Source: Candidatus Yanofskybacteria bacterium (GTDB lineage: Bacteria > Patescibacteriota > Minisyncoccia > 2-02-FULL-40-12 > IGHO2-01-FULL-4-A). Taken from it: a DNA stretch of 64,000 nt. The translations under genes were made by a program, and so were the position numbers. How positions within the stretch are numbered: the first letter of the stretch is position 1; each line of letters begins with the position of its first letter. The stretch lies in contig JACOZV010000001.1 of assembly GCA_016181175.1 (NCBI GenBank), forward strand, positions 259,519-323,518, written 5' to 3'. Below, one piece after another: positions 52,448 through 64,000 of this stretch. Below the pieces are notes generated by a model. It did no database searches. It had not been told where the DNA came from and worked only from the letters and a program-made list of their open reading frames with translations.

Positions 52448-52488
52448 TCCTGGTTTTGTAAACAAAATCGAGGATTCTCGATACAAAG

Positions 52489-52561
52489 TCCGTCCACCAG
52501 GAATCGAACCTGGAACCTTCTCCTTAAAAGGGAGCTGCTCTACCAATTGAGCTATGGACGG
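52489..52561 (-). tRNA. tRNA-Lys (anticodon UUU)
   Basis: manual fold: acceptor CCGTCCA/TGGACGG, U8, D-loop AATTGGTA, anticodon loop CUUUUAA, T-loop TTCGATT. Confidence 0.75.
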
Positions 52562-56855: not shown

Positions 56856-56903
56856 TTAGCCCCCTCCTCTTTGTTAGTATTAGTATATCAAATAAGTTAC
56901 GAT

Positions 56904-57818
56904 ATGTCAATATTTCTGCAATCCAAACAATGGATGGAATTTCAAAAGTCGCTGGGGCGGGAGGTTTTTGAATATGAGAAAGGGGGGATATCAGCCAAGA
57001 TAATAAAGCATGATTTACCACTCGGCAAGAATTACTTATACATTCCCTATGGGCCGGATATGGATTTTAACCAAATGATCGGCGGGTTCAAAAATCCGGT
57101 TGCTAATTTTGTCGGGTGGCTGCGCGAAGAAGCCAAAATGCGCAAATCTATTTTTGTAAAAATTGAACCGATGACCGACGGCGTGGCACAGGTATTGGCT
57201 GAACATAAATTTAAAAAATCTAAAAAAGAAGTCCAGCCTAGCAAAACTGTGGTTATTGATTTAAGCAAAGGCGAGGAAGAGTTACTTGCCGAGATGCACC
57301 ACAAAACCCGCTATAACATTGGGGTCGCTGACAGGCACGGCGTGGTTGTTGGCGAGCATAGCGACTCAGATTCTTTCTTGGGCTTACTTAAAAAAACTAC
57401 TAAAAGAGATAAGTTCAATCCGCACCCAGCTGATTATTATAAAAAACTTTTTGATTGCAGAGAATTGCAAACCAAACTATATTTTGCCAATCACAACGGT
57501 AAACCTGTTGCGGCGGCTTTAGTTTTAGTTTTTGGCGATACCGGTTACTATCTCCATGGCGCGTCAGACTATGAGTATCGGTCGTTGATGGCGCCCTATG
57601 CCCTTCATTGGCACATAATTAAACAATTAAAAACTGAAGGATTGAAACAGTATGACTTTTGGGGTATAGATGCCCGTAAGTGGCCCGGCGTCACCCGTTT
57701 CAAGCTGGGCTGGGGAGGTAAAACCGTTGAATACCCGGGTTCATTCAATTTGCCTATTTCTAAGTTTTGGTATATGGTTTATAAAATAACTCAAAAGTTG
57801 TCAGTAATACGCATTTGA
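56904..57818 (+). CDS. FemAB-family peptidoglycan interpeptide-bridge aminoacyltransferase-like protein
   Basis: N-terminal FLQSKQWMEFQK; Fem fold length. Confidence 0.65.
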   Translation: MSIFLQSKQWMEFQKSLGREVFEYEKGGISAKIIKHDLPLGKNYLYIPYGPDMDFNQMIGGFKNPVANFVGWLREEAKMRKSIFVKIEPMTDGVAQVLAEHKFKKSKKEVQPSKTVVIDLSKGEEELLAEMHHKTRYNIGVADRHGVVVGEHSDSDSFLGLLKKTTKRDKFNPHPADYYKKLFDCRELQTKLYFANHNGKPVAAALVLVFGDTGYYLHGASDYEYRSLMAPYALHWHIIKQLKTEGLKQYDFWGIDARKWPGVTRFKLGWGGKTVEYPGSFNLPISKFWYMVYKITQKLSVIRI

Positions 57819-57879: not shown

Positions 57880-59703
57880 ATGCCGGAACAGACACAGCCA
57901 CACCCGCTGCGCAGATTTATTATTTCCCTTAAGTTATACAGGGCACACATAGGATTGGGTAGTAACGAAAAGCTTATTAAGTTTGTTGATGAGCTTGTTC
58001 AAAGTGCTGAAAGAATTGAAACAAGGCAGGAGGCATCGGGCAGATCGGTTGGGTTAAGTTTTGAGTTTTTAGATTCAGTTTGCGGTTTCCTTTATAACCA
58101 ACTGCAAAAAGTAACAGCAGAAAACAATAAAAATAAGGCCGAAGCCAATAAATTATTGGAAAACCTGAAAAGTGCCGTTGAAGAAATAAAAGCTCTTCAA
58201 CGCCCTCCCCATTCGTTTGTTTTTTTTCAGAAGTTGGAAGAAAGAGGTGGCGAATTTTGGATTCGTACAAAAGATAGTACTGCTTTAGTATTTTCAGACG
58301 AATTGGTTGAGAAACTAAAAACCGCCAAAGCGGGCCAAAAGGTTCGGCTCAACGAATCCGGTGTAGCCATAGAATTGTTGGACGAGTTTGATAAAGACGG
58401 CGACATGGTGCAAGTTCTCGAGTTGTTGGGTGACAACCGATTGAGGGTTAGCCAAGAAAATAGGGGTGAAAGCATAGTTTTTATTTCTCCTTGTGTCCAA
58501 GAGGCGGATCTCAAAATAGGCGATAAGGTTTTACTTTCGCGATATAACAATTTAGTTACTGAAAAATTGTCCAGCTCCGAAGTAACCGAACTGGTTTTGC
58601 ATAAAGTTCCTAATTATACCTGGGATGATATTGGTGGTTTGGAAGAACAAATTGGTGCGTGGCGGGACGAAGTTGAAACCAACCTGGTTGATCCCGAATC
58701 AGCCAAAATTTACGGAATTGAGCAAACGAAAGGCGTTTTAATTACCGGTCCGCCCGGAGTCGGTAAGACTTTTCTCGTAAAAGTCGCGCTTAGCGAAACC
58801 GTAAAGTTTGTTAATCAGCAAACAGGCAGAAATATCGAGGGTTTTTATATCCTTGTAAACGGTCCAGCCGATATTTTGCGCGGTATTGTGGGGGATTCGC
58901 CGCGGCGAATCCAATATCTTTTCGCTGAAGCCAAAAGAAGGGCCAAGGAAGGCCATTTGGTTTTTATAATTTTGGATGAGTTCGAATCGTTATTTAGAAT
59001 ACGCGGCTCAATGGTTTTGGATGCCGGGGTTGGCAATGAAGATGTTAACCAGTTAAATGCTGAAATGGACGGCATTGAAGAATTGGATGGCGTACTGGTT
59101 GTGGCTTTGTCAAACAGGGCTGACCTAATTGACCCCGCCGTAATCAGACCCGGCAGGTTTGATCTCAAGATAGAAATTCCGAGATATGATAAAAAAACTG
59201 CCGCCAAAGTCTTTAGCAAATACATCAAACCGACACTCAAGTTCCATCACCAATATAAAAATCAAGACCCGGAACAAACTGCAAACCTGTTTGTTAACAA
59301 CATCGTTGATCTGTGTTATGACAGTCAGAGACCAGAAAATCAGCTGGCAGAAGTCATAGATGATGACTCCGGAGAATCTATCGTGTTCACTATTGGCAAC
59401 TTTATGTCCGGAGCTTTGATTAAAAACATAGTTTCAAGGGCAAAAAAAATTGCCCGTCGCCGGTTTGTGAATATTCCCAAAGAACAAGGCGAGAAAAGAG
59501 AATTAGAAGGGCTTATGTTGGACGACTTTTTCCAATCCATTGCAATAATTATCAGAAGCGAAATTAAATTACCGACCGGCGAGCAGGCACTAGAAGAATG
59601 GCTTCAAATTGAAGGTTATCAACACAGAAAAATAAGAAGAATGCGTTTTCTTTTGGACAAGAAAGATCCGTCCCGGACACCGGAACGCAGGGTCATGTCT
59701 TAA
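57880..59703 (+). CDS. proteasome-associated AAA ATPase (ARC/Mpa-like): coiled coil + OB-like region + AAA module
   Basis: GPPGVGKT Walker A, IILDEF Walker B, N-terminal coiled coil. Confidence 0.75.
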   Translation: MPEQTQPHPLRRFIISLKLYRAHIGLGSNEKLIKFVDELVQSAERIETRQEASGRSVGLSFEFLDSVCGFLYNQLQKVTAENNKNKAEANKLLENLKSAVEEIKALQRPPHSFVFFQKLEERGGEFWIRTKDSTALVFSDELVEKLKTAKAGQKVRLNESGVAIELLDEFDKDGDMVQVLELLGDNRLRVSQENRGESIVFISPCVQEADLKIGDKVLLSRYNNLVTEKLSSSEVTELVLHKVPNYTWDDIGGLEEQIGAWRDEVETNLVDPESAKIYGIEQTKGVLITGPPGVGKTFLVKVALSETVKFVNQQTGRNIEGFYILVNGPADILRGIVGDSPRRIQYLFAEAKRRAKEGHLVFIILDEFESLFRIRGSMVLDAGVGNEDVNQLNAEMDGIEELDGVLVVALSNRADLIDPAVIRPGRFDLKIEIPRYDKKTAAKVFSKYIKPTLKFHHQYKNQDPEQTANLFVNNIVDLCYDSQRPENQLAEVIDDDSGESIVFTIGNFMSGALIKNIVSRAKKIARRRFVNIPKEQGEKRELEGLMLDDFFQSIAIIIRSEIKLPTGEQALEEWLQIEGYQHRKIRRMRFLLDKKDPSRTPERRVMS

Positions 59704-59789: not shown

Positions 59790-61445
59790 ATGAGTATTAA
59801 AAAAATTGTTGGAATAGAAACCGAGCTAAGACTTGACTGCGTCGATCCCGAAAATGACAAAAACCGAAAGAATTCTGGAGAATTGGAAGATTACGTGCTT
59901 CCGGGGAGTGTTGTTAAAAACGCGTTGAGCCAATCTGGTGGAGTTGTCGCCGTTGGTTCCGACACGCAACCCGCAAATTTGCAAAAAAATTTGGCGATTG
60001 TGGAAAATTTAAAAAAACTTTATCCGTCGTCACAAAAAGCCATACAAGAGCATTTGGAAAACAGAAGCGCAAGAAAGCGGGACCGTGGCATATCTGAAGA
60101 AGACTGCCTTGATACATATCAAAGATTTGGCCTTTCGGGCGGTTATACGTTTTCGGGTTTTAGGATTTATGTTGATGGAACTCATCCCGAAGTGTCAACG
60201 CCTGAATGTGCCACTCCTTTTGATTTGGTTTGCCGGCAAAAAGCCGGGGAAAGGATCATAGAAGAGGGCAGAAAGAAAACCGAAGAAGAAACCGGACGAC
60301 GGATTACGCTTTCGGCTGACAACAGCGACGGTTTGGGGGGAAGCTGGGGTTCTCACGAAAATTACCTTGTAAGCGATGAGCTTTTCGAGAGCCTTACTGA
60401 GGAAGGATGCCACCGTCACGATTTTCGCAGAACCCTTAATTCATATCAGGACTTTTGGGCCTCTTTTTTGGTGACACGTTTTGTATTTTGTGGTTCTGGC
60501 AAAATGGGCAGTGAAATTGACCAGGATTTGGAAAATAAATTTTTGATTTCGCAAAGAGCGGAGTTTATAAGCTGTAATTTTAGTCATAGAACCATGGAAC
60601 ACCGTCCCATTATAAATCTGCGCGATATTCCTTATGTTGGACCCGGATTTGGCCGGAGGCTGCACGTAATAATTGGTGACTCTAACATGTGTGAACCGGC
60701 AATTTACCTAAAAGTTGGCACGGCGATGATAATGCTGATGATGTTAGAAGATAATTTTATTTCTGAAGGTTCTTTCCCTATTTTTGAAAAACCGGTTAAA
60801 GCCTTGCAAACCGTCATGTCTGACGTTGATTGCTCCAATCTCCTAGATGTCTATGTTGGCGGTCAGTTTAGACACATGACCGCGATAGATATACAGAAGT
60901 TTTTTTGCGAATTGGCGGCAAAATGGCTTGAAGAACGTTTTAAAAATACCAGCGACAAAAAATCTGTTTCTTGGGTTTCGGAAGTTTTGTTCAGATTAGA
61001 TCAAGTTTTGACCAAGTTAAAAAATGATCCCATGGATCTTTTTGGCACAATTGACTGGGTGACCAAGTATGGCTTATGTTGTTCTGAACTTGAAAACCGA
61101 AATGCTGGTTGGACAGACGTAACCTCGCGTTCGAACCCGCTATTTCGCCGTTTGATCGGGATATGCGGCGCATATCATAGGTTAGACGAACTTGGCATAT
61201 ACAATAAATTAGAAGAAGCTCAAGAAGTTGAACGTATTGTTCAGGACGTTAATATTCACATTGCTTGTCTTGAGCCGCCGCAAGGCACCAGGGCTTTTGA
61301 GAGGGGCAAATTTCTTAGACATTTCAGGGACGACATATATCTTGTAAACTGGAACCTCATTTGCATTAAACGCAATCCTTACAAAATATTTCTAAACAGT
61401 CCATATTCATTTTCACCCGCTTTAGATGTGGAGCAAGAATCATGA
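59790..61445 (+). CDS. Pup-ligase/deamidase (PafA/Dop) family homologue 1, divergent N-terminal motif
   Basis: IVGIETELRL (instead of ETEYG), HPEVSTPECATPFD; SD gagagga. Confidence 0.65.
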   Translation: MSIKKIVGIETELRLDCVDPENDKNRKNSGELEDYVLPGSVVKNALSQSGGVVAVGSDTQPANLQKNLAIVENLKKLYPSSQKAIQEHLENRSARKRDRGISEEDCLDTYQRFGLSGGYTFSGFRIYVDGTHPEVSTPECATPFDLVCRQKAGERIIEEGRKKTEEETGRRITLSADNSDGLGGSWGSHENYLVSDELFESLTEEGCHRHDFRRTLNSYQDFWASFLVTRFVFCGSGKMGSEIDQDLENKFLISQRAEFISCNFSHRTMEHRPIINLRDIPYVGPGFGRRLHVIIGDSNMCEPAIYLKVGTAMIMLMMLEDNFISEGSFPIFEKPVKALQTVMSDVDCSNLLDVYVGGQFRHMTAIDIQKFFCELAAKWLEERFKNTSDKKSVSWVSEVLFRLDQVLTKLKNDPMDLFGTIDWVTKYGLCCSELENRNAGWTDVTSRSNPLFRRLIGICGAYHRLDELGIYNKLEEAQEVERIVQDVNIHIACLEPPQGTRAFERGKFLRHFRDDIYLVNWNLICIKRNPYKIFLNSPYSFSPALDVEQES

Positions 61446-62956
61446 AACCACTAACCAGTTTTGCATGTGAGCTGGACCGGATTTACGGTACGGAAACAGA
61501 ATACGGCCTCTATTGGAATACCAATAAAACCGACATTTTTGATTTGATGGATAGAAATTTTGCTCTATCCATTACGGATTATGAAAACCTTTTTAACTGT
61601 TTTGATAACTTAAATTTTAGTCGATTGTCCGAATTTTTTGTTCAAAATGGCGGTTTAATCAAGAAAGATAATCCAAATGATTACTGTGATTGTACGCCAG
61701 AATTTGCCACACCGGAATGTAAATCAGCCAGAGACGCGGTTTGTTGGGAAAAAGCCGGGGAAATAATAATGCGGGGCTTGTTCGATCTTTCAGGTGCGAA
61801 TAATTCTGTTTTTTTGATGGTCAAGCACGGCCGCGGCATGGCAAATTATTGGGGTTTGGACGGCACAGTAGTGGAAGTTTCTTGCGGCCATCATGAAAAT
61901 TATTCATATGACGAAGAACTTAAAGCAAGATTAAAAAAAGACAGCTGGGAATCCTGCGTATTTGTTTCGTTTCTTGCCTCGCGTATTCTATTTAGCGGAG
62001 CAGGTTGGTTGGATTCAAAAGGTTTGGGTTATAAGTTAAGTCAACGGGTTGATTTTTTAGAACAAATTAAAGGTTTGAGCACAACCGAAAAACGAGCCCT
62101 GATTTGTACTCGTGATGAACCATTGGGAACACTAAGTCCGCCACGATTGCATCTTATTGCCGGCGATCATTTAATGTCGGAAGTGGCCTTGTATTTAACC
62201 CTTGGATCCACGGGTTTGGTTGTGAGGATGTTGGAATCGGGATACGATTTTGCCGGTGTGCCAATTTTGGAAAATCCGATTTTGGCCTTGCGTATATTTA
62301 ATTCGGACCCGTTGTTAAAAAATAAGGCAATGCTTAGCGGACTCCAAAAAGAAATAACTGCTCTTGAAATTCAGGAATATTTTTGTGCCAGAGCCGGTGA
62401 GTTTATTAATTGTAACCCGTCGACTGAAGAAGAAAATGATATTGTAGCCTATTGGGCAAGCGTGCTGAAGCGTCTCAAAAAAGATATTTACTCTCTTTAT
62501 GGTGAACTCGACTGGGTTACCAAATTGTGTTTAATGGAATCTTATTTGGAAAAATACGGCATTTGTCCCGAGAGGATTAGGGAGACCAATGGTTTGCCGC
62601 TAGAAACTTTAAATTGTTGCATGAGCCTTGATCTGACATATCATTTTATCACGCCTGACGGCCTGTATAACAAACTTAAAGAAGCGGGTTTGATCAAAAG
62701 GCTTCTGTCTGACGAAGAAATAACTCATGCCGTGACCAATCCGCCGCAAGATACCAGAGCAAGAATTAGGGGAGAAATGATTCAACTTATGAAGTCTGGC
62801 AAAATAGAAGGCCGAGTTGGCAATTGGAATAGCTTTAGCTTAAGTGGTCTTCCGCCGCACCAGCGTTTGGTTAGATCCGTCATAGGCATGGAAGATCCTT
62901 TTGATTTTTATTGCAAAGTATGGCAAGATCAAAAAAGATCATTAGGCTTCTCTTAA
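61442..62956 (+). CDS. Pup-ligase/deamidase (PafA/Dop) family homologue 2
   Basis: YGTETEYGLYW and TPEFATPECKSARD match PafA/Dop N-terminal signatures; ATGA overlap with homologue 1. Confidence 0.7.
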   Translation: MKPLTSFACELDRIYGTETEYGLYWNTNKTDIFDLMDRNFALSITDYENLFNCFDNLNFSRLSEFFVQNGGLIKKDNPNDYCDCTPEFATPECKSARDAVCWEKAGEIIMRGLFDLSGANNSVFLMVKHGRGMANYWGLDGTVVEVSCGHHENYSYDEELKARLKKDSWESCVFVSFLASRILFSGAGWLDSKGLGYKLSQRVDFLEQIKGLSTTEKRALICTRDEPLGTLSPPRLHLIAGDHLMSEVALYLTLGSTGLVVRMLESGYDFAGVPILENPILALRIFNSDPLLKNKAMLSGLQKEITALEIQEYFCARAGEFINCNPSTEEENDIVAYWASVLKRLKKDIYSLYGELDWVTKLCLMESYLEKYGICPERIRETNGLPLETLNCCMSLDLTYHFITPDGLYNKLKEAGLIKRLLSDEEITHAVTNPPQDTRARIRGEMIQLMKSGKIEGRVGNWNSFSLSGLPPHQRLVRSVIGMEDPFDFYCKVWQDQKRSLGFS

Positions 62957-62967
62957 GAGGTGATGAA

Positions 62968-63150
62968 ATGTCGCAGGAAGAAAAAACCAAAAAAAGGCCT
63001 GGCGATAATCGCGAACCGCAAGAAGAATCAAGAAAAAAAGCAGAACGAGAGCGAAGATCAAAAAAGCATAAAGACATTCTTGAAGACCTTCAAGATGTAA
63101 TAGGTGAAACGGAAAAACAAAGGCAGAAGGGCCGCAAGGGCGGTCAGTAA
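62968..63150 (+). CDS. prokaryotic ubiquitin-like protein (Pup/UBact-like), 60 aa, C-terminal GGQ
   Basis: disordered K/R/E-rich N-terminus, ILEDLQDVIGETE helix, ...KGRKGGQ-stop; SD agaggtga. Confidence 0.65.
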   Translation: MSQEEKTKKRPGDNREPQEESRKKAERERRSKKHKDILEDLQDVIGETEKQRQKGRKGGQ

Positions 63151-63151
63151 A

Positions 63152-63177
63152 GCGGATTTAATCCGCTTTTTTTCTTG
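63152..63177 (+). terminator. rho-independent terminator
   Basis: agcggatttaatccgct + T-run. Confidence 0.6.
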
Positions 63178-63241
63178 ACTTCAGCATGGTATCTAGGATA
63201 AACTTTTAGCAACTTGCTGTTTGAAATTTATAGGGGATATT

Positions 63242-64000
63242 ATGGAATTTCTAACCGCCGAAGAGGTTTTTGATAAATCTAGTGCTGAAGCGTTTAAGGG
63301 GTTAAATGATACAAATGGCGTCAGTATTGCTGACATTGGAAAGTTTTTATTGCACGGCACGACTGATTTAGCCATTCTTTTTGAGAGCGGGATAGTGTTA
63401 GCTACAGACGGCCGAGCCGCCGGACAAGATATGCATATCGGAGATGAATTTTTTGACAAAACATGCATGCTTGATAGTCACTCCCTGATTGCAATTTCTG
63501 GCGTTCCCGGGCTGGGTTTTTCCATGGCGAAACTAATAAGAGCAAGATTCATGTTTTCAGCAATGGACCACGAAAACCTTCCGCTTCCTGCCGAGACCAA
63601 AGCCAATGTCGTTGCCGCAAGCATCAGGGATAATTTGGGTTTGGTGTTAACTCACAAACTGGTTGTTCAGCCAATTTTGGCAATTTTTGATTTAAGTGAA
63701 TCCAAACCGTGCGGTAAAATTTTTAGCATCTGGATTGACGGAACGGTGCAAAAAGGAAACCGCTACGTTACTTGCGGTTCTGGCGGTCAAGTCGCGGACG
63801 TTGTTCTGGACCTGGCCCTTAACGTTATAAAAAAGAAACCGGACCAACTTTCACTCCAGGATGCCCAACATCTAGCGGTCTTAGCGCTTGAGTATGCCCA
63901 CAAAAGAGATGCGGCCACCGGAGGAAAGATATTTATGCGCGTTATTACCAAACACGGCGTAGAGTCCGTTTCGGAAGAAGAGATAAGCGGGTTTAGCGAA
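63242..64000 (+). CDS. prcB: 20S proteasome beta subunit (partial, runs off window)
   Basis: propeptide then HGTTDLAILFESGIVLATDGRA (N-terminal Thr nucleophile context); ORF open at window end. Confidence 0.75.
   Translation, partial: MEFLTAEEVFDKSSAEAFKGLNDTNGVSIADIGKFLLHGTTDLAILFESGIVLATDGRAAGQDMHIGDEFFDKTCMLDSHSLIAISGVPGLGFSMAKLIRARFMFSAMDHENLPLPAETKANVVAASIRDNLGLVLTHKLVVQPILAIFDLSESKPCGKIFSIWIDGTVQKGNRYVTCGSGGQVADVVLDLALNVIKKKPDQLSLQDAQHLAVLALEYAHKRDAATGGKIFMRVITKHGVESVSEEEISGFSE

What the first reader, a model, noticed from the sequence alone, without database searches (positions are those of the whole stretch)
62968..63150. Pup-like protein with C-terminal GGQ
A C-terminal Gln implies a deamidation step before ligation (known for mycobacterial Pup). 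The N-terminal half is extremely K/R/E-rich (EEKTKKRPGDNREPQEESRKKAERERRSKKHKD), unlike the acidic actinobacterial Pup. Charge inversion suggests a different recognition partner or a UBact-type lineage.
Basis: partly seen in the sequence, partly recalled or inferred. Interest (0 to 1): 0.55.

Follow-up and report, generated by a model that had tools for sequence, protein, structure and literature searches.

The report
Divergent basic-tailed Pup tag gene
This 60-residue gene in a Candidatus Yanofskybacteria genome is a real, very divergent relative of Pup, the bacterial "ubiquitin-like" degradation tag; it sits inside a complete tag-and-proteasome operon, and public records call it a hypothetical protein.

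Summary
The ORF is real: 62968-63150 (+) encodes 60 aa ending in GGQ. It is basic (net +5, pI 9.75), whereas actinobacterial Pup is acidic (net -10 to -14). It has a Shine-Dalgarno site and a terminator hairpin, and it is under purifying selection (dN/dS 0.11).

It lies in a conserved operon: Mpa-like ATPase, Dop-like enzyme, PafA-like enzyme, tag, proteasome beta, then alpha in the matching contig L001.

Pfam Pup, Pfam UBact and TIGR03687 do not detect it. An exhaustive profile search of 1.84 billion proteins found only 11 relatives, all ending GR[KRQT][GS]G[QE] (one VPRKGGE).

Profile-profile comparison nevertheless links the family to Pup (hhalign 94%, P 1e-7, far above shuffled controls). 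The shared parts are the N-terminus and the first amphipathic helix. There is no link to UBact (P 0.26). Pup's hydrophobic second helix is replaced by a basic tail.

Family members end in either Q or E, as Pups do, and the upstream paralogue carries an enlarged Dop-loop. This fits deamidation followed by ligation.

Net positive charge is not constant across the family; the basic tail is.

Verdict: a new sequence variant of a known kind. Biochemistry is inferred, not shown.

The parts
57880..59703 (+). Mpa/ARC-like proteasomal AAA+ ATPase (607 aa), with OB domains and an N-terminal coiled-coil region
   Evidence: TIGR03689 pup_AAA 1.3e-95 (321 bits, below the 505-bit cut-off). Also PF16450, PF17758 and PF00004. 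The C-terminus is ...RRVMS, with no GQYL motif.
59790..61445 (+). Pup-ligase-family paralogue #1, Dop-like (predicted tag deamidase / de-tagging enzyme), 551 aa from the ATG at 59790 (the ORF runs from GTG 59763)
   Evidence: PF03136 9e-93; TIGR03688 Dop 249 bits against PafA 212. PDB Dop 4B0R 216 bits against PafA 4B0T 138. A 107-residue insertion at the Dop-loop site, where Dop has 65-92 and PafA 36-37. YVD plus 2 residues before HPE, as in Dop. A locally built Dop HMM beats the PafA HMM by 52 bits.
61442..62956 (+). Pup-ligase-family paralogue #2, PafA-like (predicted tag ligase), 504 aa, with a divergent active-site neighbourhood (KKD...TPE, 8-residue insertion after the catalytic Asp)
   Evidence: PF03136 3.5e-78. 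No Dop-loop (46 residues). An insertion after the catalytic Asp in the PafA direction. Pairwise scores are higher to PafAs than to Dops in all 7 family members; the HMM difference is small, -22 to +4 bits. 100% identical to an NCBI 'PafA2 family protein' of Ca. Yanofskybacteria.
62955..62963 (+). Shine-Dalgarno sequence AAGAGGTGA for the tag gene
   Evidence: Read directly from the sequence.
62968..63150 (+). Tag gene: 60-aa divergent Pup homologue ending in GRKGGQ
63149..63177 (+). Intrinsic-terminator-like hairpin (AAAGCGGATTTAATCCGCTTT) plus T-run, directly after the tag stop codon. A promoter-like site follows at 63175-63204.
   Evidence: Equivalent hairpins sit downstream of the tag gene in L055-L058.
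63242..64000 (+). 20S proteasome beta subunit, cut by the window end (262 aa in L001). HGTT processing / active-site Thr motif at residues 38-41.
   Evidence: PF00227 2.4e-18; TIGR03690 5.5e-24. In L001 it is followed by a 228-aa alpha-like subunit.

Best explanation
The ORF encodes a highly divergent member of the Pup family of small, intrinsically disordered protein tags. It serves a complete pupylation-proteasome system in a Candidatus Yanofskybacteria (CPR/Patescibacteria) bacterium.

Proposed mechanism, by analogy with actinobacterial pupylation; every step is inferred and none is shown:
1. The Dop-like paralogue #1 deamidates the C-terminal Gln60 to Glu.
2. The PafA-like paralogue #2 phosphorylates the gamma-carboxylate with ATP and ligates it to a lysine epsilon-amine of a target protein.
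3. The conserved acidic amphipathic helix (residues ~35-48, DILEDLQDVIGETE) docks on the coiled coil of the Mpa-like ATPase.
4. The disordered N-terminus is threaded into the ATPase pore and the substrate is delivered to the 20S proteasome encoded just downstream.
5. Paralogue #1 can also remove the tag.

The family differs from canonical Pup in its last ~16 residues. The hydrophobic helix 2 that binds the ligase groove is replaced by a basic tail, E-x-Q-R-x-K-G-R-K-G-G-Q. This change presumably co-evolved with the unusually divergent PafA-like enzyme.
For: Context:
- The gene order ATPase, Dop-like, PafA-like, tag, PrcB, PrcA is conserved in L001, L055, L056, L057 and L058. The tag also follows ligase #2 in L005, L006 and L019.

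Family:
- 18 members were collected. All are 52-61 aa and end in G[QE].
- 13 end in Q and 5 in E. This is the same Q/E alternation seen among the actinobacterial Pups collected here.

Homology to Pup:
- hhalign of the family against 24 Pups gives 94% probability and P = 1.1e-7 over columns 1-50.
- The score is 36.8, against 7.9 +/- 1.6 (maximum 14.1) for 150 column shuffles.
- The CPR HMM scores 17 of 24 Pups above all 50 of their shuffles, up to 22.5 bits. The Pup HMM scores the window tag at 7.8 bits, against a shuffle maximum of 6.2.
- Relative P0092 gives a sub-threshold Pfam Pup hit, E = 0.017.
- Shared features are visible in the alignments: the N-terminal M[AS]QE.K..[RK]K motif and the helix-1 hydrophobic spacing i, i+1, i+4, i+7, i+8.

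Structure:
- AF2 predicts residues 1-15 disordered, a helix at 16-57 with pLDDT above 90 at about 31-50, and a free GGQ.

Enzymes:
- Dop and PafA discriminators taken from PMC7947786 were applied.

Selection:
- dN/dS is 0.11.

Mechanism reference: PMC3511204, PMC2588565.
Against: - No curated model recognises the tag. Pfam Pup, Pfam UBact and TIGR03687 give no hit at E <= 10.
- The exhaustive HMMER profile search recovered no canonical Pup.
- The reversed-column control still reached score 23.6 and 49% probability in local hhalign. Part of the signal is therefore pattern or composition.
- The segment that contacts PafA and Dop in Pup, by my recollection of the 4BJR work, is not conserved here.
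- Both ligase paralogues score far below the NCBIfam equivalog cut-offs.
- The PafA assignment of #2 is weak: its alpha-loop motif GL.TT.KR looks Dop-like, and PDB Dop outscores PDB PafA for it.
- The ATPase lacks the C-terminal GQYL docking motif.
- There are no biochemical or proteomic data.
Confidence: 0.68

Rival explanations
1. It is a UBact, the Pup-like tag described in 2017 for Gram-negative and candidate phyla, rather than a Pup-lineage protein.
For: - It is non-actinobacterial, basic, and in the same operon position as the Latescibacterota UBact in L054.
- From my memory of Lehmann et al. 2017 (BBRC 483:946; the reference is confirmed via PMC5751360, but the text was not readable), Yanofskybacteria and Parcubacteria were listed among the UBact-bearing taxa.
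- Some relatives end in SGQ or SGE, like UBact's [ST]G[QE].
Against: - Pfam UBact PF20513 scores the L054 control at 76.7 bits, but none of the 14 CPR tags scanned.
- hhalign of the CPR family against UBact gives P = 0.26, and the CPR HMM scores UBact at 2.7 bits. Against Pup the P-value is 1e-7.
- The UBact signature seen in the L054 example (RMRKVDP..ARRYRQR[ST]G[QE]) is absent.
- Caveat: only one verified UBact sequence was available for comparison.
Confidence: 0.15
2. It is an independently evolved (convergent) tag. It was recruited by a PafA/Dop-type ligase pair and only resembles Pup because any such tag needs a disordered N-terminus, an amphipathic helix and a G[QE] end.
For: - Standard HMM searches find no Pup similarity.
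- The reversed-alignment control gave 49% hhalign probability.
- In a neighbour-joining tree the ligases fall outside the actinobacterial and Nitrospira Dop and PafA clades.
- Several other unrelated-looking tag types sit next to Pup-ligase homologues (L014/L038/L052 and L045/L050).
Against: - The real alignment scores far above 150 column shuffles and above the reversed control.
- The similarity includes the N-terminal MxQE.K..RK motif and the exact hydrophobic spacing of helix 1, plus KGG[QE].
- P0092 bridges weakly to Pfam Pup.
Confidence: 0.12
3. It is not a conjugated tag. It is a small basic regulatory or nucleic-acid-binding protein, or an adaptor or inhibitor of the ligases or the proteasome, that happens to end in GGQ.
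For: The protein is Lys/Arg-rich with pI 9.75. There is no experimental evidence of conjugation.
Against: - The strict conservation is at the extreme C-terminus: G59 is invariant and the last residue is only Q or E.
- Net charge is not conserved; L057 and L058 are acidic.
- The gene is always immediately downstream of the ligase pair, even where no proteasome follows (P0092).
Confidence: 0.04

Closest known systems
Pup (prokaryotic ubiquitin-like protein; Pfam PF05639, TIGR03687) of Actinobacteria
   Same: - About 60 aa, with a disordered N-terminus starting M[AS]QE.K..[RK]K.
- An acidic amphipathic helix D-[IL]-L-[DE]-[DE]-[IL]-x-D-V-[IL]-x-E with identical hydrophobic spacing.
- Ends in KGG[QE], with Q/E alternation between species.
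- Encoded next to Dop, PafA, the Mpa-type ATPase and the proteasome genes prcB/prcA.
- Profile-profile probability 94%.
   Different: - Not detected by the Pfam or TIGR models.
- Net charge +5 against -10 to -14.
- The hydrophobic second helix (AExFVxx[FY]VQ) is replaced by a basic E-x-Q-R-x-K-G-R tail and is 2 residues shorter.
- 11 lysines.
- Gene order has both ligase paralogues upstream of the tag.
- The host is a CPR bacterium.
UBact (Pfam PF20513; Lehmann et al. 2017)
   Same: A basic, non-actinobacterial small protein ending in G[QE]. It lies between a Dop-like gene and the proteasome genes, as in L054.
   Different: - No PF20513 hit, while the control scores 76.7 bits.
- No hhalign or HMM similarity.
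- Lacks the RMRKVDP...RYRQR[ST]G[QE] signature seen in the L054 example.
- Has an acidic helix 1 like Pup, where UBact has a basic one (DDLLRRMRKV).
Dop / PafA enzyme pair (TIGR03688 / TIGR03686; PDB 4B0R, 4BJR)
   Same: - Two paralogues of the carboxylate-amine ligase fold (PF03136).
- One has a Dop-loop and the YVD-xx-HPE arrangement. The other has no loop and an insertion after the catalytic Asp.
   Different: - Both are far below the equivalog cut-offs.
- The Dop-loop is enlarged to 99-115 residues.
- The PafA-like enzyme has KKD and TPE in place of YLD and HPE, and a 7-16-residue insertion instead of 1.
- Both fall outside the actinobacterial and Nitrospira clades in a neighbour-joining tree.

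Membership tests
Pup family (sensu Iyer, Burroughs & Aravind 2008, PMC2588565) | A 50-90 residue protein with a conserved C-terminal G[EQ] signature | tested here: met
   60 aa ending in GGQ. All 18 family members are 52-61 aa and end in G[QE].
Pup family | Encoded in the neighbourhood of PafA/Dop-type ligase(s), usually with an ARC/Mpa ATPase and the proteasome genes prcB/prcA | tested here: met
Pup family (Pfam PF05639 / NCBIfam TIGR03687) | Score above the curated cut-off of the family model | tested here: not met
   No hit at E <= 10 for the window protein. Actinobacterial controls score 44-86 bits. The best relative, P0092, scores 16.4 bits against a 27-bit cut-off.
Pup family | Detectable homology to Pup by profile-profile comparison | tested here: met
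   hhalign 94%, P = 1.1e-7. Score 36.8 against a shuffle maximum of 14.1; the reversed control scored 23.6.
Pup family | Bihelical C-terminal half with a hydrophobic second helix (AExFVxx[FY]V) followed by QKGG[QE] | tested here: not met
   Helix 1 is conserved. The helix 2 positions are polar or basic (EKQRQKGRK). Only 5 hydrophobic residues lie in the last 27, against 8-9 in Pup.
Pup family | Disordered N-terminus with a helix-forming C-terminal half | tested here: met
   AF2 gives residues 1-15 as coil (pLDDT 55-59) and a helix at 16-57 (pLDDT above 90 at about 31-50). This is a prediction only.
Pup family | Covalent isopeptide conjugation through the C-terminal Glu gamma-carboxylate to target lysines | not testable with these tools
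   Needs biochemistry or proteomics.
UBact (Pfam PF20513) | Score above the PF20513 gathering threshold | tested here: not met
   No hit for the window protein or 13 relatives. The L054 UBact control scores 76.7 bits.
UBact | Conserved C-terminal block ...LL+RMR+VDP..A+RYRQR[ST]G[EQ] (taken from the L054 example and my recollection of the 2017 paper) | tested here: not met
   The window has DILEDLQDVIGETEKQRQKGRKGGQ. hhalign against UBact gives P = 0.26.
Dop (for paralogue #1, 59790-61445) | Dop-loop insertion; Val before the catalytic Asp; no residue inserted after it (PMC7947786, Table 1) | tested here: met
   107-residue insertion (Dop 65-92, PafA 36-37). YVD, then 2 residues before HPE. 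The Dop HMM beats the PafA HMM by 48-68 bits in all 7 orthologues.
Dop (TIGR03688 equivalog) | Score above the 492-bit cut-off | tested here: not met
   249 bits.
PafA (for paralogue #2, 61442-62956) | No Dop-loop; an insertion after the catalytic Asp; PafA-type alpha-loop (PMC7947786) | tested here: inconclusive
   No loop (46 residues), and an insertion is present but 8 residues long rather than 1. The alpha-loop motif GLSTTEKR resembles Dop's GLETTLKR. The PafA-versus-Dop HMM difference is only -22 to +4 bits. TIGR03686 scores 194 bits against a 551-bit cut-off.

The most novel reading that the evidence does not exclude
The CPR system may be a separately evolving, possibly early-diverging form of pupylation.
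- Tag recognition by the ligase and deamidase would have switched from a hydrophobic helix-in-groove contact to an electrostatic contact with a basic GR[KR]GG[QE] tail.
- The partner would be a remodelled PafA-like enzyme (KKD/TPE active-site surroundings, 7-16-residue insertion) and a Dop with a loop of about 100 residues.
- With 11 lysines in the tag, poly-tag chains might also form.

If the two paralogue clades truly branch outside the actinobacterial Dop and PafA clades, this would challenge the view that pupylation arose in Actinobacteria and spread by transfer (PMC7947786).
Probability: 0.15. Interest if true: 0.65.

Novelty: new variant of a known kind. Interest (0 to 1): 0.42.

Why it matters
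- Pupylation is the only known bacterial pathway that tags proteins for proteasomal degradation in the way ubiquitin does, and it has been studied almost only in Actinobacteria.
- This work identifies the missing tag gene for the system in CPR/Patescibacteria (Yanofskybacteria, Paceibacterota). These are tiny-genome, probably symbiotic bacteria that nevertheless keep a whole proteasome operon.
- Curated models miss the tag and public records label it hypothetical. Annotation pipelines would therefore report these operons as lacking a tag.
- The family gives a natural experiment on which parts of Pup are essential. Helix 1 and GG[QE] are kept; helix 2 is replaced.
- Lys57 precedes GGQ, so trypsin would leave the same Lys+GGE (+243.09 Da) remnant used in pupylome studies. 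The prediction can be tested directly in existing groundwater metaproteomes.

Tried and rejected
- Pfam and NCBIfam scans of the tag and 13 relatives at E <= 10 gave no Pup or UBact hit, except P0092's weak Pup hit.
- phmmer of the tag against PDB sequences gave only a chance match to a de novo helical protein, E = 3.3.
- The word-indexed homologue search with the single tag found 2 proteins. With a 9-sequence profile it found 8.
- The genome-contig scan with the single ligase found nothing. It succeeded once an alignment was used.
- A neighbour-joining tree could not assign the two ligase paralogues to Dop or PafA. I used indel and motif discriminators and HMM score differences instead.
- Three contig look-ups intended to collect more UBact sequences returned only canonical Pup loci. 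The UBact comparison therefore rests on one verified sequence.
- Literature: the UBact paper is not held. No held paper links pupylation with Patescibacteria or Yanofskybacteria.
- Rejected: translation from the upstream starts at 62911 (TTG) or 62920 (ATG). They have no SD, they overlap the ligase gene, and homologues start at the 62968 position.
- My first shuffle script parsed the wrong hhalign column. It was redone.

Full report
**Observation**

The window contains an ORF at 62968-63150 (+) that encodes MSQEEKTKKRPGDNREPQEESRKKAERERRSKKHKDILEDLQDVIGETEKQRQKGRKGGQ. A Shine-Dalgarno sequence, AAGAGGTGA, ends 5 nt before the ATG. A 9-bp hairpin with a T-run starts at the stop codon (63149-63169). 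The protein has 19 K+R and 14 D+E, net +5, pI 9.75. Four actinobacterial Pups from related loci have net -10 to -14.

**Surroundings**

The genes immediately around the ORF, all on the + strand, are:
- an Mpa/ARC-type proteasomal AAA ATPase at 57880-59703 (TIGR03689, 1.3e-95);
- two Pup_ligase PF03136 paralogues at 59790-61445 and 61442-62956;
- the small ORF;
- a proteasome beta subunit from 63242, cut by the window end.

An identical contig, L001, shows the beta subunit (262 aa) followed by a 228-aa alpha-like subunit. The second ligase is 100% identical to an NCBI protein from a Candidatus Yanofskybacteria MAG. That record annotates the small ORF as a 76-aa 'hypothetical protein HYT61_01590', called from an upstream ATG.

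**Is it a real, conserved gene?**

- Scans with a ligase alignment and contig look-ups recovered related operons from Paceibacterota, another Yanofskybacteria genome and unnamed metagenome contigs.
- In each, a 54-61 aa ORF ending in G[QE] lies directly after ligase #2, followed by a hairpin terminator.
- dN/dS between the window and the 68%-identical L019 copy is 0.11, with dS about 1.7.
- A profile of 8 members, searched exhaustively with HMMER against 1.84 billion representative proteins, found only 11 representatives at E <= 1e-3. All are 52-61 aa, and all but P0092 (VPRKGGE) end in GR[KRQT][GS]G[QE].
- The family is therefore real, rare and sharply defined.

**What is conserved**

- An N-terminal M-[SP]-Q-x-E-K..-[KR]-K-x-P start.
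- A variable charged linker.
- An acidic amphipathic helix, D-[IL]-L-x-[DE]-[LI]-x-D-[VI]-I-x-E-[AT]-E.
- A basic tail, x-Q-[RK]-x-[KR]-G-R-[KR]-G-G-[QE].

Thirteen members end in Q and five in E. Net charge is not conserved: L057 is -5 and L058 is -3. The last 12 residues are always positive, +1 to +5. AF2 with the family alignment predicts residues 1-15 as coil, one long helix at 16-57 that is most confident at about 31-50, and a free GGQ.

**Relationship to Pup and UBact**

- Curated models do not see the family. There is no Pfam Pup, Pfam UBact or TIGR03687 hit at E <= 10 for the window protein and 13 relatives. Actinobacterial Pups score 44-86 bits, and a Latescibacterota UBact (L054) scores 76.7 bits on PF20513.
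- One relative, P0092, gives a sub-threshold Pfam Pup hit (16.4 bits, E = 0.017).
- Profile-profile comparison is clearer. hhalign of the 18-member family against 24 Pups extracted from the loci gives 94% probability and P = 1.1e-7 over columns 1-50.
- The score of 36.8 compares with 7.9 +/- 1.6 (maximum 14.1) for 150 column-shuffled alignments, and with 23.6 for the reversed alignment.
- The family HMM scores 17 of 24 Pups above all of their shuffles. The Pup HMM scores the window protein above all 100 of its shuffles.
- The aligned features are the N-terminal MxQE.K..RK motif and helix 1, which has the same hydrophobic spacing as Pup's LLDEIDxVL.
- Against the one verified UBact there is no signal: hhalign P = 0.26, HMM 2.7 bits.
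- I conclude that this is a divergent Pup-lineage tag, not a PF20513-type UBact.
- The real difference from Pup is the loss of the hydrophobic second helix (AExFVxx[FY]VQ). By my recollection of the PafA-Pup complex (4BJR), that helix lies in the ligase groove. Here it is replaced by a basic segment 2 residues shorter.

**The two enzymes**

A neighbour-joining tree places CPR paralogues #1 and #2 in two separate conserved clades. Both lie outside the actinobacterial, Nitrospira and Latescibacterota Dop and PafA clades, so the tree does not assign them. I then used the discriminators published by Hecht et al. (PMC7947786).

| Feature | Dop | PafA | CPR #1 | CPR #2 |
|---|---|---|---|---|
| Residues at the Dop-loop site | 65-92 | 36-37 | 99-115 | 28-52 |
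| Motif at the catalytic Asp (window copy for #1 and #2) | YVD | Y[LIQ]D | YVD | KKD |
| Residues between the Asp and HPE | 2 | 3 | 2 | 7-16 (TPE replaces HPE) |

Other comparisons:
- Locally built Dop and PafA HMMs favour Dop for #1 by 48-68 bits in all seven orthologues. For #2 they are nearly neutral, -22 to +4 bits.
- Pairwise scores for #2 are higher to PafAs in all seven.
- PDB Dop outscores PDB PafA for both paralogues.
- The alpha-loop of #2 looks Dop-like.

So #1 as the deamidase and de-tagging enzyme is well supported. #2 as the ligase is the likely assignment but rests on weaker evidence.

**Mechanism (inferred)**

The model follows the actinobacterial pathway (PMC3511204, PMC2588565):
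1. Paralogue #1 converts Gln60 to Glu.
2. Paralogue #2 ligates the gamma-carboxylate to target lysines.
3. Helix 1 binds the ATPase coiled coil.
4. The N-terminus is threaded into the ATPase and the substrate is degraded by the 20S proteasome.
5. Paralogue #1 reverses the tagging.

The Q/E alternation within the family is what this chemistry predicts. Nothing here shows conjugation directly.

**Novelty**

- Pup-like tags outside Actinobacteria have been known since 2008 (PMC2588565).
- UBact was described in 2017. From memory, that paper lists Yanofskybacteria and Parcubacteria among its taxa, but I could not read it.
- The system's presence in CPR is therefore probably not new.
- What appears new is the recognition of this particular tag family: a basic-tailed Pup variant that Pfam and NCBIfam miss and that is annotated as hypothetical. 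It is paired with an unusually divergent PafA-like enzyme and a Dop with an enlarged loop.
- I rate it a new variant of a known kind, of moderate interest.

**Limits**

- Only one verified UBact sequence was available for comparison.
- The reversed-alignment control shows that some of the hhalign signal comes from pattern or composition.
- The tree is neighbour-joining only.
- No complex structure could be predicted.
- There are no experimental data.

Noticed in passing
window 59640-59703; L055, L057, L058 ATPase C-termini: The CPR Mpa-like ATPases lack the C-terminal GQYL/GHYL motif present in the actinobacterial (L059) and Nitrospira (L053) ATPases. By my recollection, that motif docks the ATPase on the 20S proteasome. 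The CPR proteins end instead in ...VMS...IMS...PMA and ...NMA, a conserved M-[SA] end. Docking to the 20S may differ.
   Followed up: partly
window 63149-63204: A terminator-like hairpin directly after the tag gene is followed by a promoter-like TTGACT-18-TAAACT site before the proteasome beta gene. The hairpin recurs in L055-L058. This suggests the tag is made in excess of the proteasome subunits, or that they are transcribed separately.
   Followed up: partly
window 62920-63150: The NCBI record (MBI2062915.1) calls this gene from an upstream ATG as a 76-aa hypothetical protein that overlaps the end of the ligase gene. The conserved start is 62968.
   Followed up: yes
L014:6625-6861, L038:252-458, L052:32-858: A different small-protein family sits next to Pup-ligase homologues in Candidatus Zipacnadia and in metagenome contigs. 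Its members read MQRQLERHRPAPV...RLVxAMRRQRGGQ. Pfam Pup, Pfam UBact and my CPR profile all fail to detect it. L052 carries three such G-Q-ending ORFs in tandem within 1.2 kb.
   Followed up: partly
L045:3687-3914, L046, L050:2978-3157: Another tag type (...FVKNWTVPGGGE) lies upstream of very long Pup-ligase homologues of 644-752 aa. These may be the membrane-anchored planctomycete or deltaproteobacterial ligases described by Iyer et al. 2008. No Pfam hit.
   Followed up: no
L065:1-628, L066: P0092 is the family member closest to Pup (ends VPRKGGE). It follows a Pup-ligase C-terminal fragment, but a P-type cation ATPase (E1-E2 type) and a ClpB/ClpX-like AAA protein follow it instead of proteasome genes. 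This may be a proteasome-independent version of the system.
   Followed up: partly
L016, L017, L018 (Halobacteriales, Thermoplasmatota, Methanobacteriota MAGs): Archaeal contigs encode Pup-ligase-family homologues (27-30% identity to ligase #2, no Dop-loop). My scan found no adjacent small ORF ending in G[QE].
   Followed up: no
window 52488-52561 (-): A single tRNA-Lys(UUU) is the only Rfam or ARAGORN hit in the 64-kb window. The window's GC content is 41%.
   Followed up: no
window 56871-57818: A FemAB-family peptidyltransferase gene lies directly upstream of the ATPase here and in L001 and L055. A Mur ligase gene follows the proteasome genes in L001, L002 and L055. This is conserved linkage between cell-wall genes and the proteasome operon.
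   Followed up: no
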